A model generated the notes under the pieces. The model ran no database searches. It had not been told where the DNA came from and was given only the letters and a program-made list of their open reading frames with translations. A stretch of DNA of 52,532 nucleotides, filler included, from Squatina squatina (Eukaryota), in NCBI GenBank assembly GCA_031763465.1. It is 3 parts of 3 records of this genome, joined end to end, with 100 filler letters (N's around TTAATTAATTAA, not from the genome) between each part and the next. Parts side by side here need not be neighbours in the genome. Positions count along the whole stretch, not along the records: positions 1 to 25,205 come from JARFOE010000057.1; 2 more parts are not named here. One strand, given 5' to 3'. A program made the position numbers and the translations under genes. Of this stretch, positions 76 through 25,181 are shown in pieces (within the stretch, counting starts at the first letter, position 1; the number at the start of each line of letters is the position of its first letter).

Positions 76-1527
76 TTATTTTTCCCTATCCTGACTAATC
101 AAACCAAAAATGATGGTGACCCCAATATCGTATCCAAAAGGATTTGAATTAATGGCATCCAATAGAAAGCTGATCAGGATCAATTGAAAGCTGAGAGAGA
201 AGGCAAACCACACTGTGTTAAGAAAGATAGTCCCTATCACCACAAAGCAATTAAAAAGCAGGAAGCCAATAATCCCTACCGCAATACCAAACCCCCTAGT
301 GGTGCCATAGAGACCACCGTATCTGGTCAAACCCCAGATTATCCACGTTAGACCATATAGGATGAAAGCACAACTTTCCAGGGTTTTACCCCGAGAAAAA
401 GAGATTGAACCGCATAGAATCTGCAGGACTCCCCCAGGAATGACTATCCAGGGCAGAACCACAGTGGCTAAAGGAGCAGAAGCATTGACGGATAGAGTGA
501 TGGCAAAGGCAGCCACAACATTACAGGCATGGGCTAGAATTTCAGCATCTGAATATCTGGAGTATCCCAAATAAGGGCTATGGGTGTCTTTGTCTGACTT
601 CAGAGTTAATGTAGTCATCCTAATGAGTGAACCCTTTACAATCCCCTGTCCAGTGGGAATAGTAAGAGATCCAAAACTATTGAAGAGAGAAATTAAAGTT
701 AAGCAAGCAGATGCCACAAATATGGCCACACTGACAGCTTGTGCACCACCATGAAAAAAACCAATAGGGTGAGCTGCCACTGCTATACAATAGGAAACGA
801 AAAAAAGCAAATAAATTCCATCAACAAGGCTTTTACTAGTCATAAACAGAGCCAGAAAGAAAAAAAGGACAGCAAGAACAATAGGGACTGGAACTGCAAA
901 GAAGGGCTGCTGGTCTTGCCAGAGCTTGTAAAGTAAAGCATAGCCTTCTGCAAATTTTAATATGGAGGTAAAACCAAAGAATGTAGCAGTCAAGCTGTCA
1001 ATTGCTCTGTAAGACAAAACACAAACAACAATTTGATAGACAGCTGCTGTCCACAGCCAGGGGACCTGGCCAACAAACAGATTGGAAGTTACACCCAAAA
1101 CCTGGCATCCTAACACACTGGCAGATAGCATATTCATAATGTACCCCAGAGCCACTGTGTCATTTTTCAAGAGGTTCTGGGGCCCAGCTTTCAGATGGGA
1201 ATTATTCTTGGACAGATCAGTCCCTGGGAAAATGATTTTTCCTTTACACATGAAGACAGAAGCACGGCCCAACCCAAAGTAAAGTCCTATGAAGGACACA
1301 ATCAAATAATTTGAAGCTACTGCAGAACGACCAAAAGATTGATCACATAATGCGGCAATTTCATGGGCAGTAGCAAGAGAGATAGCAAAAGCAATCATGG
1401 CCAGAATCACTTCCTTTTGAATTAACCCCACCACCCCGATGATGAAGAGCCCCAAGACAAAAGCCGAGTAGCCAGGGACCAGAGCATTCTTGATGCTATC
1501 ATCTTGAACTACCTTCTCCCCGATCAA
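76..1527 (-). CDS. Polytopic membrane protein with tandem GPR1/FUN34/YaaH (SatP/AceTr)-like repeats; large exon, 5' end runs into a gap
   Basis: 483-aa hydrophobic ORF with many TM segments. GGVLQILCGSISFSRGKTLESCAFILYGLTWI resembles SatP/YaaH GGxxQxxxGxxExxxGNTFGxxAFxSYGxFW. Repeat-start motifs NDTVALG and SDAEILA sit where NPAPLG would be. Confidence 0.7.
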   Translation of the reverse strand: MIGEKVVQDDSIKNALVPGYSAFVLGLFIIGVVGLIQKEVILAMIAFAISLATAHEIAALCDQSFGRSAVASNYLIVSFIGLYFGLGRASVFMCKGKIIFPGTDLSKNNSHLKAGPQNLLKNDTVALGYIMNMLSASVLGCQVLGVTSNLFVGQVPWLWTAAVYQIVVCVLSYRAIDSLTATFFGFTSILKFAEGYALLYKLWQDQQPFFAVPVPIVLAVLFFFLALFMTSKSLVDGIYLLFFVSYCIAVAAHPIGFFHGGAQAVSVAIFVASACLTLISLFNSFGSLTIPTGQGIVKGSLIRMTTLTLKSDKDTHSPYLGYSRYSDAEILAHACNVVAAFAITLSVNASAPLATVVLPWIVIPGGVLQILCGSISFSRGKTLESCAFILYGLTWIIWGLTRYGGLYGTTRGFGIAVGIIGFLLFNCFVVIGTIFLNTVWFAFSLSFQLILISFLLDAINSNPFGYDIGVTIIFGLISQDREK

Positions 1528-1736
1528 GATGTGNNNNNNNNNNNNNNNNNNNNNNNNNNNNNNNNNNNNNNNNNNNNNNNNNNNNNNNNNNNNNNNNNNN
1601 NNNNNNNNNNNNNNNNNNNNNNNNNNNNNNNNNTTACACCCATTGATTAAGCAGTCAATTTCCCTTTGGACCCTACAGCAATCATTTTAGTAGTAACAAA
1701 ATCTCAACTAAATCGCCATCTATTTTCTCTATTCAG

Positions 1737-1938
1737 GTGGTTTTGGGGTTGCTAAGAATCTGAGTAGCTGGGCAGTGAAAGGGAAGGATTGCAGTGTGGA
1801 GCCATCAGTAGAATCGGCGATAAAGAAATTCCATGCTACAAAGAAACCCATTGGTCTGTGCTGCATCTCTCCAGTGCTGGCAGCTAAACTTATCCCCGGT
1901 TGTGAATTAACTGTGGGTTATGACACAGAATGTGAAAA
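1737..1938 (+). CDS. Exon of a GATD3/ES1 (DJ-1/PfpI superfamily)-like protein
   Basis: ag|GT GGT...GAA AA|gtaagt; translates [67 protein letters not shown], with the ES1/ElbB motifs GGFGxAKNL and [10 protein letters not shown]. Confidence 0.9.
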
Positions 1939-22632: not shown

Positions 22633-22890
22633 TGAGTAACGAGAAGCTGGGAAAGTTGCACTGGAGGAGAGGAGGCTAAGGGTTGATTGTACAGCAGTAT
22701 TAAAGATCCTAAAGGACATAGGCAAGATAAATGTTTAACGTAGTCATAGGTTCTACAACTAGAGTACCTACCCTGAAACCTGGAAGAGGGAAAGGTAAGA
22801 TACTTTTTAAATTCAATAATTTTACACAGAGAGTGGTGAATGTATGGAATGGACTGCCAAGGGAGGCAGTGGAGGTTGATTGTTTCAACA
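22633..22890 (+). mobile_element. Degenerate CR1 LINE fragment
   Basis: tttacacagagagtggtgaatgtatggaatggactgcca, CR1 ORF2 end (FTQRVVNVWN). Confidence 0.6.
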
Positions 22891-23593
22891 AATATGATTC
22901 CAATAAATAATTTGCTACTCAGCTTCATAAAAATACAAGGTAACCTAAGCTGATTTATTTCAGATAGATATATGCCATGTATTCTGCATAGAAAATCTCC
23001 CATTTCCAATGTACTATGACTGTAGTGTGGGTAGCATCAGACTTCACAAATGAATCAAGCAGGTGTCACCTAGATGTTTACTGGAGTTATATCTCACAAT
23101 TGATGATGCGGTTCAATTCTTCAGTTAATAACTTCAATGTTGACATTGATATTGACTGCAGTAATTTTATTACTGTTATTTGTATAAATATATATTTTAT
23201 GATTTTTAATTATGGCAGCAGAATGGTAGAATGATTGAAACTGACATTTAATTAAATGTTCATTCCATTGCAGTTATTAACTGTTGAACATATATCAGTT
23301 GGGTCAGCAAGCTTCATCTCAGGTTTTTGCACCCCAGCAAAATAAAGCGTTGCTTTGATAAGGTGAACCAATAACTATTAAAGTACAGCAAATCATGATC
23401 TCCCATATTCTCTGCACTGAAAGGAAACCATTGTACATCACTGCATTTCTTCCTTCTGCCACATATATCAATGGTAATGGGAAATTATCCACATGTGTAA
23501 CAAATTTATTGTTTGCATTCTGTGACTATATGTAATTGATCTGTGTAGCTTCATTAAATGTCAGTTTGGAAATTTCTGTCAAGTTGAGGTTTG

Positions 23594-25181
23594 TTATTCG
23601 TCAAGTTTGTTCTTCACTTGTTCAAAGAGTTGCATGACTCCCACTGCTGGGACACAGCCTTCTCTTAGAATGGTGATTCCTTCTGAAAAAAGTCAATCAT
23701 TTCTGTCAGAAACAGATTAATCATAGCCAAAGCCCATCACAATTACCACTGAAGTGGTCTTTAGAAATCATTAATAACGGTGAATTATTGAACAAAGTCA
23801 TATTAAAACTAACAGCCTATTTAAAAAATTCATACATGTAGAAACCCTGGGAGCTAGGCTAATACCAGTTATTGGATAAAATCAGTTTACAATTGTACTT
23901 TCTCGATGAACCTCACAGGTGTCAACATGAGTTGCATCTGGCTGACCTGCACAAGTGTTAATAATACATTCAGCAATGTAGCAAATGCTGTAACAAATGG
24001 TCAGCACTAAATGAGACTGCTACGTGTGTACTCAGTCCAACTTCAATCCCATCTCCTATTTCAAATACCACTATGTTCACATATTAAAGCTTGTATATAA
24101 TTGAAAGGAATACACATACATATAAGCCTTAGGGGCTAAACCAATGTAGAAGTTATTGGATAAAATTAGTTTAACCAATTGCGTATATCATTAATATATT
24201 TGAACAGAATGCTGTAATACCTTCATCAATCTTGGTACAGTTTACGACAGTGGAAGCAATCAATTCATTGGAGGTTCCATCACATAGAACACCATCAATC
24301 TTGTACCCAAGACGCCTGTCATTAAACATGATAACACACACATTGAAAAAGACATGTACTATTCGAATACATACGAGATAACCATGTCATGGTGGGTGCT
24401 ATCACACTCTCCACTAGGGTTTGCTGAAGTTATGGCTAGTGGCCCAGTCATATTCACAAGGTGGGCTGTCACAGTGTGGTCAGGAACACGGATCATGATG
24501 CTGTCCTTTGTACCAACACGATCATAGGCAGCGCCAACACCTTTAATAAAGGAGACAATCTGATTGTCAAAACTTCCTTAGAATCTAATCTCATTCTAAT
24601 ACTGATTAACTGATACAACTGGAAGTTTGAACAGGGATCAATAGCTGCTTCAACATGTTCTACGAATCACAATGAATACCTAGTCTCCTCAGCCATTCTC
24701 CTTTCTTCACAATACAACTGATCCCTCCAGGGTAGACATGGTTCATGAATTCCCAGAGCAAGGGGCTGAATGGAGGATGCACTGCAGAAAGTTGGTCCAG
24801 ACTGGAGATACAGATACAGATAGGCTTCTCTGCAGGACGTTCCTGGAAAGCATGGACAGCAATCATCCGTTAAAAGACTGAAAAGTGCACTTTATGGCAA
24901 ATGACATTACTGGGTAAGAATAAAAAGCTGTAAGAGTCTTGTCTGTATGTTCAGTATTTAAATCTCACTGGTTTTGCCATCCATACCTTTATGCTGTAGA
25001 TCCTTTCAACAGCCTCTGGGTGTTTACAGGAAGCTGCCAGGGCGTACACAGTATCAGTTGGTATCCCACACACATGGCCAGAATCCAAGATTTTTGCAAT
25101 AGTTTGCAGACCACTAGTCTGCCATGAAGAAGCAATGGGACAAGATGAAGTGGTTTGGTCTTTCCTTCTGTTTTTTTCAAC
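23594..25181 (-). CDS. YrdC/Sua5 (TsaC)-like domain protein, last five exons: 25181-24987, 24842-24680, 24540-24375, 24315-24221, 23682-23594
   Basis: All GT-AG and phase-compatible; spliced: VEKNRRKDQTTSSCPIASSWQTSGLQTIAKILDSGHVCGIPTDTVYALAASCKHPEAVERIYSIKERPAEKPICICI...VYPGGISCIV...IRVPDH...GPLAITSANPSG...ASTVVNC...ITILREGCVP...KNKLDE*. Confidence 0.92.

What the first reader, a model, noticed from the sequence alone, without database searches (positions are those of the whole stretch)
76..25181. Candidate vertebrate metabolic gene cluster: AceTr-like transporter, YrdC-like enzyme, GATD3-like and GLOD5
Seen: before the first linker, the only recognisable intact-looking host protein genes are an AceTr-like membrane protein, a GATD3/ES1-like exon, GLOD5 and a non-canonical YrdC domain. 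Established: AceTr/SatP proteins carry small carboxylates; DJ-1/PfpI and VOC/glyoxalase folds include reactive-dicarbonyl-handling enzymes; YrdC uses ATP, bicarbonate and threonine to form an adenylate. Inference: four unrelated folds with compatible small-molecule chemistry may form an operon-like cluster absent from mammals. I recall similar unnamed neighbouring genes in zebrafish (si:ch211-153b23.x) but cannot verify this. Caveat: all adjacencies cross N gaps.
Basis: partly seen in the sequence, partly recalled or inferred. Interest (0 to 1): 0.8.

Follow-up and report, generated by a model that had tools for sequence, protein, structure and literature searches.

The report
Microbe-induced channel-enzyme gene cluster in vertebrates
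Sharks, fish, frogs, lizards and birds keep two unusual membrane proteins (each a small-acid channel fused to a tRNA-modification-type enzyme) next to a hydrolase gene; these genes are switched on by bacteria in zebrafish (the hydrolase also in chicken gut), so they may make or handle an unidentified small defence molecule.

Summary
The AceTr-like exon (94-1533) and the YrdC exons (23594-25181) are not two unrelated genes. They are opposite ends of two paralogous ~870-aa fusion proteins (three SatP-like repeats plus a TsaC/Sua5 domain), orthologues of zebrafish si:ch211-153b23.4 and .3. Between them lie an ES1/ElbB-like gene without a mitochondrial leader (.5) and GLOD5. An Ato-Sua5 gene and .5 share a contig in 26 of 28 genera, including five scaffolds under 1 Mb. 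GLOD5 linkage rests on one close accession pair. Zebrafish .3/.4/.5 rise 8-66-fold in infection, with irg1l, while yrdc, gatd3a, es1 and glod5 do not change significantly; the chicken .5 orthologue is also microbe-induced. Paralogue .3 keeps the KxR/SxN catalytic tetrad; .4 never has KxR (0 of 69). A model supports pairing of the two domains, though a homodimer surface could explain it. The fusion family was published in 2026; I found no report of the cluster, the co-induction or the enzyme/pseudo-enzyme split. Best guess (0.4): a mucosal channel-enzyme that makes and exports a carbamoyl-type small acid. Product and substrate are untested.

The parts
94..1533 (-). Large exon of Ato-Sua5 paralogue B (si:ch211-153b23.4 orthologue), encoding most of the three SatP-like repeats. 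5' part lost in the gap; homology ends at base 94 and the frame stops at 76-78; its YrdC exons are not in the window.
   Evidence: 83% to XP_048400657, residues 87-563; AceTr_1 E=0.002, below cut-off
1737..1938 (+). Internal exon of the ES1/ElbB-like DJ-1-superfamily gene (si:ch211-153b23.5 orthologue; chicken LOC422305); carries the GLCCI nucleophile motif
   Evidence: (ElbB model 271.8 bits, cut-off 180, on full-length shark orthologue P0195)
3571..3726 (+).
   Evidence: (AG/GT ends, 82-83% to P0341/P0342), names
4460..4588 (+). GLOD5 last coding exon with stop
5165..22532 (.). 17.4-kb repeat-rich contig with no cluster exon: LINE fragments, tandem repeats, tRNA-Lys(CTT) 5717-5789, a histone fragment, an internal 2.6-kb duplication; may be misplaced
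   Evidence: (no fetched Ato or ES1 protein matches here at E<=0.01)
24987..25181 (-). Ato-Sua5 paralogue A (si:ch211-153b23.3 orthologue), first YrdC exon in the window (linker, PTDTVY, Lys of KxR); the membrane exons lie beyond the scaffold end
24680..24842 (-). Paralogue A exon (Arg of KxR, KP motif)
24375..24540 (-). Paralogue A exon (RVPD, TSANP, DSTHH)
   Evidence: (PF01300 above cut-off)
24221..24315 (-). Paralogue A exon (ASTV)
23594..23682 (-). Paralogue A last coding exon (REG, stop)
25206..25305 (.). Artificial scaffold linker N44-TTAATTAATTAA-N44; end of the cluster scaffold

Best explanation
This is a conserved, microbe-inducible mucosal module built around a two-subunit channel-enzyme. 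SHOWN: .3, .4 and .5 are linked across jawed vertebrates; all three are induced by bacteria in zebrafish and .5 in chicken; .3 keeps every TsaC catalytic and threonine-binding residue while .4 lacks the KxR arginine. PREDICTED BY MODELS: each Ato-Sua5 protein has 18 membrane helices as three SatP-like repeats (half of a SatP hexamer) plus a cytosolic TsaC domain, and the two TsaC domains pair. INFERRED: .3 and .4 form a six-pore ring with one active and one regulatory or pseudo-enzyme domain. The .3 domain uses ATP and bicarbonate to make an amino-acid carbamoyl-adenylate (TC-AMP-like) that is not meant for tRNA, because the housekeeping yrdc gene is separate and uninduced and no Kae1/TsaD partner was seen in the cluster. 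The activated carbamoyl becomes a small N-carbamoyl or cyclic-carbamate acid that leaves through the pores as an antimicrobial or signal. The cytosolic cysteine hydrolase .5 finishes or scavenges the electrophilic intermediate. GLOD5, a ring-opening lactonase type, is a looser member that may give self-protection.
For: In Heterodontus three .5 copies interleave with .3 models, so the block duplicated as a unit. Expression: zebrafish Shigella sonnei infection log2FC .3 +6.0.4 +4.0.5 +3.1 (padj below 1e-12), irg1l +5.8, acod1 +3.8; yrdc, gatd3a and es1 flat. .3 and .5 are hubs of one co-expression module with irg1l and noxo1a. Chicken LOC422305, matched to .5 by its primers and 155-bp amplicon, rises 25-28-fold after Salmonella in non-leukocyte caecal cells and is lower in germ-free birds. 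Architecture: AlphaFold2 model of P0128, pLDDT 78.9, Foldseek to SatP TM 0.75-0.80 of the target and to Sua5/TsaC2; repeat-to-repeat HHalign probabilities 87-97%. Residues: K708, R710, S801, N803, T685, S839 in 41 of 41 .3 sequences and R855 in 40 of 41; Q for R in 37 of 39 aligned .4 sequences; across all fetched proteins KxR in 79 of 80 .3 and 0 of 69 .4 domains. Complex model of the two YrdC domains: score 0.83, best of 3 controls 0.00, 100% contact agreement, partner pLDDT at least 84; the mark was reached by 51 of 78 solved and 2 of 108 mismatched microbial pairs, and 39 of 65 and 2 of 126 eukaryotic ones.
Against: No substrate, product, transport direction or activity was measured; the chemistry after TC-AMP is inference, and TC-AMP's spontaneous cyclisation is recalled, not looked up. 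The modelled interface is symmetric and close relatives of a true partner also pass (10 of 12), so it may only show a homodimer surface; the two chains came from different sharks. .4 has Arg four residues later where .3 has Lys, which might restore activity. No bird .3 appeared among the 63 hits (a weak search that also missed most teleosts); if birds lack .3, an obligate heterodimer fails there. glod5 was not significantly induced (+0.65, padj 0.50), and shark GLOD5 has a basic 33-residue N-terminal extension like a mitochondrial leader, unlike .5. GLOD5 and .5 persist in mammals that lack the fusions. Five of 16 accession pairs are 408-1117 apart and two are 33 apart. Locus tags in Xenopus, Hymenochirus and Pleurodeles are 86-304 apart, so the block may be loosened or have extra copies in amphibians.
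Confidence: 0.4

Rival explanations
1. Uptake-and-detoxification module: the pores import, or clear, microbial or inflammatory carboxylates and lactones (itaconate-related compounds are the lead), the TsaC domain activates or traps them, and GLOD5 and .5 hydrolyse lactones and electrophiles.
For: Co-induction with irg1l and acod1. Shark GLOD5 is 58% identical to the VOC protein lying between acyl-CoA dehydrogenase and MmgE/PrpD genes of the P. aeruginosa itaconate operon, which PMC9875883 shows to be a 2-hydroxyparaconate lactonase; 2 of 5 bacterial neighbourhoods read are itaconate-type. PMC13316224 suggests import coupled to assimilation. ElbB and GATD3A are reported glyoxal-handling hydrolases.
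Against: 3 of 5 bacterial neighbourhoods are unrelated; glod5 was not significantly induced; TsaC chemistry forms carbamoyl-adenylates, not acyl-adenylates of organic acids; chicken IRG1 is phagocyte-expressed while ES1 is non-leukocyte.
Confidence: 0.25
2. Gated channel: the TsaC domains are ligand sensors (ATP, bicarbonate, amino acid) that open or close a carboxylate or anion channel; no product is exported.
For: Obligate fusion to a channel fold; one paralogue has lost KxR yet is strongly conserved; both share a family-specific GExDxxHH loop.
Against: The full catalytic set is invariant in .3 from amphioxus to sharks and frogs, and P0128 passes the TC-AMP synthase model cut-off (129.8 vs 123.2); this reading leaves the linked hydrolase unexplained.
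Confidence: 0.2
3. A tandem paralogue pair with bystander neighbours that share an inflammation-responsive enhancer; no common pathway.
For: Microsynteny is common in slow-evolving vertebrate genomes (general knowledge); GLOD5 and .5 are not lost together with the fusions; glod5 and si:ch211-153b23.7 are not significantly induced.
Against.5 is a dedicated leaderless duplicate (95 of 100 full-length hits start within 6 residues of the domain); it is induced in both fish and bird while its paralogues gatd3a and es1 stay flat in fish; it was co-duplicated with .3 in Heterodontus.
Confidence: 0.12
4. Scaffolding artefact: unrelated contigs joined by 100-N gaps.
For: All joins are exactly 100 N; in the third scaffold a DUF1731 exon sits between two inward-rectifier exons, which suggests loose joins; the 17-kb middle contig has no cluster exon.
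Against: The same genes are linked in independent chromosome-level assemblies and share one zebrafish BAC name. Only the exact order and spacing in this specimen remain unproven.
Confidence: 0.03

Closest known systems
Vertebrate Ato (AceTr)-Sua5 fusion family (Ghasemi et al., iScience 2026, PMC13316224)
   Same: Three Gpr1/Fun34/YaaH domains plus C-terminal Sua5/YrdC, ~900 aa, two clades, absent from mammals, dimer proposed to rebuild the SatP six-domain ring. Both window fusion genes are members.
   Different: That paper's main text has no mention of cluster, neighbour, synteny, GLOD5, heterodimer or catalytic residues. The two clades being neighbours, the KxR/KxQ split and the infection induction are additions here.
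TsaC/Sua5/YRDC TC-AMP synthases (and the TsaC-like domains of TobZ and HypF)
   Same.3 has KxR/SxN, the T/S/R threonine site and the TsaC signature Thr; fold matches Sua5/TsaC2.
   Different: Membrane-tethered, inducible, additional to housekeeping yrdc, no TsaD/Kae1 partner seen in the cluster; PTDTVY is followed by Ala or Val where Sua5 has Gly; extra DxxHH loop; .4 lacks the Arg.
SatP/Ady2 acetate-succinate channels
   Same: Six-helix repeat fold, conserved Gln and Trp positions.
   Different: Three repeats in one chain; NPAPLGL is degenerate (EPxVLGL, EPMALG, DPLFY); polar Asn or Asp where the gate Phe is expected (placed by motif spacing, not by a structural overlay), so selectivity probably differs.
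ElbB / ES1 / GATD3A (DJ-1 superfamily)
   Same: Passes the ElbB model; catalytic Glu and Cys motifs kept.
   Different: No mitochondrial leader; inducible; a separate gene from gatd3a and es1 in zebrafish.
PA0880/Rdo 2-hydroxyparaconate lactonase and STM3117 of bacterial itaconate operons
   Same: 58% identity to GLOD5 along the whole domain.
   Different: No CoA transferase, hydratase or lyase genes here; activity of vertebrate GLOD5 untested.
Eukaryotic metabolic gene clusters such as the gadusol genes of non-mammalian vertebrates (recalled, not looked up)
   Same: Linked unrelated enzymes, kept in fish, amphibians, reptiles and birds, lost in mammals.
   Different: Product unknown; built around a channel-enzyme fusion; losses are staggered rather than joint.

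Membership tests
Vertebrate Ato-Sua5 fusion family | Three tandem six-helix AceTr repeats | tested here: met
   On full-length orthologue P0128: 18 helices, HHalign 87-97% between repeats, Foldseek to SatP; the window holds only part
Vertebrate Ato-Sua5 fusion family | C-terminal PF01300 domain in the same chain | tested here: met
   Best hits of both window pieces are fusions; neither fusion is complete inside the window
TsaC/Sua5 TC-AMP synthase (paralogue .3) | KxR/SxN tetrad and T/S/R threonine site | tested here: met
   TIGR00057 129.8 bits against cut-off 123.2 (amphioxus P0168 scores 108.9, below)
TsaC/Sua5 TC-AMP synthase (paralogue .4) | KxR/SxN tetrad | tested here: not met
   KxR in 0 of 69 domains, mostly KxQ; TIGR00057 106.8, below cut-off; this domain is not in the window
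TsaC/Sua5 TC-AMP synthase | Makes TC-AMP and supports t6A on tRNA | not testable with these tools
   needs an enzyme assay or complementation
Canonical AceTr transporter | NPAPLGL, FLY and SY/FGFW motifs | tested here: not met
   motifs defined; degenerate in all repeats; AceTr_1 scores 18-31 against cut-off 50; PF01184 28.4 against 25 for P0128
Canonical AceTr transporter | Carboxylate transport, six-domain ring | not testable with these tools
   the membrane pair exceeds the complex-folding size limit; no assay
ES1/ElbB subfamily of DJ-1/PfpI | ElbB profile; catalytic Glu and Cys | tested here: met
   NF008747 271.8 vs 180; DGxExHE in 107 of 120 and G[LM]CCI in 117 of 120 hits
Mitochondrial GATD3A/ES1 | N-terminal mitochondrial leader | tested here: not met
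   95 of 100 Met-starting hits begin within 6 residues of the domain; 20 of 120 were partial and not scored
GLOD5 / Rdo-type VOC lactonase | Sequence orthology to GLOD5, STM3117, PA0880-type proteins | tested here: met
GLOD5 / Rdo-type VOC lactonase | Lactone hydrolysis | not testable with these tools
   shown only for PA0880 (PMC9875883)
Eukaryotic metabolic gene cluster | Physical linkage of non-homologous genes across species | tested here: met
   for Ato-Sua5 with .5, by proxies (contig length, accession distance); GLOD5 by one close pair only
Eukaryotic metabolic gene cluster | Co-expression | tested here: inconclusive
   met for .3/.4/.5; not significant for glod5 in infection; weak co-movement of .5 and glod5
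Eukaryotic metabolic gene cluster | Joint loss across lineages | tested here: not met
   .5 kept in monotremes and GLOD5 in human, while fusions are reported absent from mammals
Eukaryotic metabolic gene cluster | Common pathway with a defined product | not testable with these tools
   needs knockouts and metabolomics
Horizontally acquired bacterial operon | Same gene set adjacent in prokaryotes | tested here: not met
   0 of 38 GTDB loci with a YrdC-like match (24-33% identity) had a SatP-, VOC- or ElbB-like gene within the flanks held; the scan reaches only pattern-matching relatives

The most novel reading that the evidence does not exclude
Non-mammalian vertebrates have an undescribed innate-immune biosynthetic pathway: a heterodimeric SatP-ring channel carrying an active and a pseudo TsaC domain repurposes t6A chemistry to make and secrete a carbamoyl-type antimicrobial or signalling acid at mucosal surfaces, in parallel with itaconate. 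A clustered cysteine hydrolase and a lactonase tailor it or protect the host. Mammals lost the pathway stepwise.
Probability: 0.3. Interest if true: 0.9.

Novelty: new variant of a known kind. Interest (0 to 1): 0.7.

Why it matters
The 2026 description of vertebrate Ato-Sua5 proteins left their function open. Placing both clades in one microbe-induced cluster, with an enzyme/pseudo-enzyme split and two hydrolases beside them, turns that into specific experiments in zebrafish and chicken. It also gives context to long-reported markers of unknown function (chicken 'ES1 homolog' LOC422305; zebrafish si:ch211-153b23.3-.5) and a testable activity for the orphan human gene GLOD5 (lactonase). If a secreted product exists, it would be a new immune metabolite and a use of TsaC chemistry outside tRNA modification in animals.

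Tried and rejected
One split gene spanning the scaffold (YrdC exons as the other end of the AceTr exon's gene): rejected, because the domain order is reversed and the YrdC exons are 50% identical to .4 but 87-89% to .3. Bacterial operon origin: no support in 38 loci; the motif stretches printed for 10 of them lack KxR and SxN. A tree of YrdC domains is unusable for origin: one row was mis-cut, long branches met and no canonical vertebrate YRDC was available; it shows only that seven .4 rows form one long-branched group. Pfam did not detect the window's AceTr, ES1 or GLOD5 single exons. The atlas gave only chordate clusters for the full protein and AceTr-family leads under 0.9 for the first repeat. 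Zebrafish and chicken coordinates of glod5 were not found: one supplement was too large to read, others had no positions. Species labels of the Ato paper's trees are in figures that could not be read, so presence of .3 in birds stayed open. The single-cell co-marking of .5 and glod5 involves about 1.5% of cells in an unidentified cluster and carries little weight. Rfam found only the tRNA.

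
Full report
What the window is. It is a concatenation of small elasmobranch scaffolds separated by an artificial N44-TTAATTAATTAA-N44 linker. The finding covers the first scaffold (1-25205), five contigs joined by gaps of exactly 100 N. Nearest protein relatives are all sharks and rays.

Observation. The four pieces exist. ORF 76-1533(-) is one large exon, 83% identical to residues 87-563 of Stegostoma si:ch211-153b23.4. 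Its match ends at base 94; homologues continue for about 50 more codons, while the window reads five unrelated residues and stops. A weak splice donor, an insertion or a chimeric contig end are all possible, so this copy may be truncated. The exon at 1737-1938(+) belongs to the si:ch211-153b23.5 orthologue. GLOD5 has two exons, 3571-3726 and 4460-4588. Five exons at 23594-25181(-) form one open frame, 89% identical to the C-terminus of Heterodontus .3. The 17-kb middle contig holds repeats, a tRNA-Lys and a histone fragment, and no cluster exon.

Main correction. The AceTr-like and YrdC pieces are not two unrelated genes. The best hits of each are ~870-aa proteins with a membrane part followed by PF01300. 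They are two paralogues, 33% identical over 729 columns: the window shows the membrane exon of .4 and the enzyme exons of .3. An AlphaFold2 model of P0128 from an 80-row alignment (pLDDT 78.9) has 18 long helices, matches SatP (TM 0.75-0.80 of the target) and Sua5/TsaC2, and the three repeats align with each other at 87-97% probability. The .3 type also occurs in amphioxus.

Prior art. PMC13316224 (seen: abstract, sections 8 and 14 in full, passages, supplement text; figures not readable) already describes this family: three AceTr domains plus Sua5, two clades, all vertebrate lineages except mammals, and a dimer that rebuilds the SatP ring. Its main text has no occurrence of synteny, cluster, neighbor, GLOD5, heterodimer or catalytic. 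Paper searches for the clone name, GLOD5 with YrdC, 153b23 or glod5 (40 of 59 listed), a six-term cluster query (no paper) and a chicken query showed no description of the cluster. The library omits most subscription journals, and supplements I could not read may bear on this.

Linkage. No eukaryotic genomes could be searched, so I used proxies. Among 28 genera named on both sides, 26 report the same longest-contig length for an Ato-Sua5 and a .5 protein, five of them scaffolds of 110-852 kb (four birds, one frog). The two misses are a 17-kb fragment and a pair from different assembly versions. Of 16 accession pairs (closest isoform taken; species of .5 rows assigned by accession series and contig length where names were cut), 9 are at most 6 apart, 2 are 33 apart and 5 are 408-1117 apart; that accession order follows gene order in batches is my inference. 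In Heterodontus three .5 copies interleave with .3 models. Zebrafish .3.4 and .5 share one BAC name. GLOD5 is two accessions from .5 in Scyliorhinus torazame and on the same chromosome but 408 away in S. canicula; its zebrafish and chicken positions were not found. In three amphibians locus tags are 86-304 apart. Loss is staggered.5 is in platypus and echidna, and GLOD5 is in human (organism recalled).

Expression. In PMC6980646 (seen: one passage, supplementary table rows) Shigella sonnei infection raises .3.4 and .5 by log2 6.0, 4.0 and 3.1, with irg1l 5.8 and acod1 3.8. yrdc, gatd3a and es1 are flat; glod5 (+0.65) and .7 (+1.5) are not significant. PMC11140123 (passages) puts .3 and .5 as hubs of one module with irg1l and noxo1a. 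PMC8877790 (passages, three table rows) shows .3/.4/.5 moving broadly together and .5 and glod5 both down in one condition. PMC11489432 (passages, two rows) gives weak co-marking of .5 and glod5. PMC7083608 (one row) places stickleback .5 on Chr4, and bioRxiv 2024.09.16.613370 (one passage) lists medaka .5 as stress-induced. Chicken LOC422305 is the .5 orthologue: its published primers match a bird .5 protein at the right spacing for the 155-bp product. PMC4256799 and PMC5042506 (passages; table rows for the second) report 25-28-fold induction by Salmonella in non-leukocyte caecal cells, induction by microbiota, and lower levels in germ-free birds.

Catalytic residues. PMC10321239 (passages) defines KxR/SxN for ATP and T/S/R for threonine. 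In .3 these are present in 41 of 41 aligned sequences (the last Arg in 40) and in the window's own exons. In .4 the Arg is Gln in 37 of 39 aligned rows. Over all 206 fetched proteins, 57 without a readable domain set aside, KxR occurs in 79 of 80 .3 and 0 of 69 .4 domains. .4 carries Arg four residues later, which might compensate. Both share a GExDxxHH loop not seen in the solved Sua5 proteins aligned. A complex model of the two YrdC domains scored 0.83 against a best control of 0.00, with full contact agreement and partner pLDDT at least 84; the mark was reached by 51 of 78 solved and 2 of 108 mismatched microbial pairs, and 39 of 65 and 2 of 126 eukaryotic pairs. The interface is symmetric and close relatives also pass this test, so it supports pairing of these domains but not hetero- over homodimer.

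The two hydrolases. .5 passes the ElbB model, keeps the catalytic Glu and Cys motifs and has no leader in 95 of 100 scorable hits. PMC8935817 and PMC12135873 (passages) report glyoxal-directed and amidolytic activity for GATD3A and no cPGA hydrolase activity for ElbB, so the true substrate of this subfamily is unsettled. GLOD5 is closest to STM3117-type VOC proteins and 58% identical to the VOC gene inside a P. aeruginosa itaconate operon. PMC9875883 (passages) shows that gene to be a 2-hydroxyparaconate lactonase; PMC12290011 (passages) cites this as proposed. Two of five bacterial neighbourhoods read, out of 193 matching records, were itaconate-type. Shark GLOD5 has a basic N-terminal extension that suggests mitochondrial import (inference), which fits poorly with a plasma-membrane complex.

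Origin. None of 38 prokaryotic loci with a YrdC-like match had a SatP-, VOC- or ElbB-like neighbour, so a transferred operon has no support; the cluster looks assembled in chordates (inference).

Mechanism. Most likely (0.4): a microbe-induced epithelial channel-enzyme in which .3 and .4 complete a six-pore ring, .3 makes a TC-AMP-like carbamoyl-adenylate that is not used for tRNA, a small carbamoyl or cyclic-carbamate acid is exported, and .5, with GLOD5 as a looser member, tailors or scavenges the reactive intermediate. Linkage, induction and residue patterns are shown; fold and domain pairing are predicted; chemistry, direction and product are inferred. Rivals: uptake and detoxification tied to itaconate-like compounds (0.25), a ligand-gated channel without product (0.2), bystander linkage (0.12), artefact (0.03). 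That .3, .4 and .5 form a functional co-regulated module I put at about 0.8; that GLOD5 is in the same pathway at about 0.45.

Verdict. A real, conserved, infection-induced cluster around a recently described family of unknown function; new as a system, not new in its parts. Interest 0.7.

Noticed in passing
window 1-93: Homology of the .4 exon ends at base 94 and is followed by AT-rich sequence with no match elsewhere in the window; intron with a weak donor, insertion or chimeric end.
   Followed up: partly
window 8364-10966 and 18298-20972: A 2.6-kb internal duplication (about 83% identical) inside the repeat-rich contig, including LINE and non-LINE sequence.
   Followed up: no
window 5717-5789 and about 6290-6350: tRNA-Lys(CTT) gene and a degenerate tRNA-like stretch that no tool called.
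   Followed up: partly
window about 17340-17470 (-): Core-histone fragment, H2B-like by recall, below Pfam cut-off, embedded among repeats.
   Followed up: no
window about 11040-11400: CpG-rich promoter-like patch with no coding exon identified downstream in this contig.
   Followed up: no
window 41687-42325 (-), 47675-48016 (+), 51256-51462 (-): A DUF1731 exon (SDR39U1-like by recall) lies between two inward-rectifier channel exons (KCNJ3-like by recall), suggesting loose 100-N joins in this assembly.
   Followed up: partly
window 25309-25560 (-) and 33627-33904 (+): A calcium-channel beta-subunit-like exon and a C2H2 zinc-finger exon in the second scaffold (names recalled; Pfam gave no hit for the first, the second was not scanned).
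   Followed up: no
Heterodontus francisci XP_067904069-083: The .5/.3 block appears in three tandem copies, some .3 models partial; Hyperolius also has three .5 copies.
   Followed up: partly
amphibian, lizard and fish hits: Many YrdC-only .3-type models of 150-320 aa: split annotations or real stand-alone copies.
   Followed up: no
L006-L043: Bacteroidota, Leptospiraceae and other prokaryotic YrdC-like proteins share PTDTVYAL with the vertebrate family; the ten printed lack KxR and SxN (YciO-like by recall).
   Followed up: partly
zebrafish si:ch211-153b23.7: A fourth gene of the same BAC, weakly and non-significantly induced; its identity was not determined.
   Followed up: no
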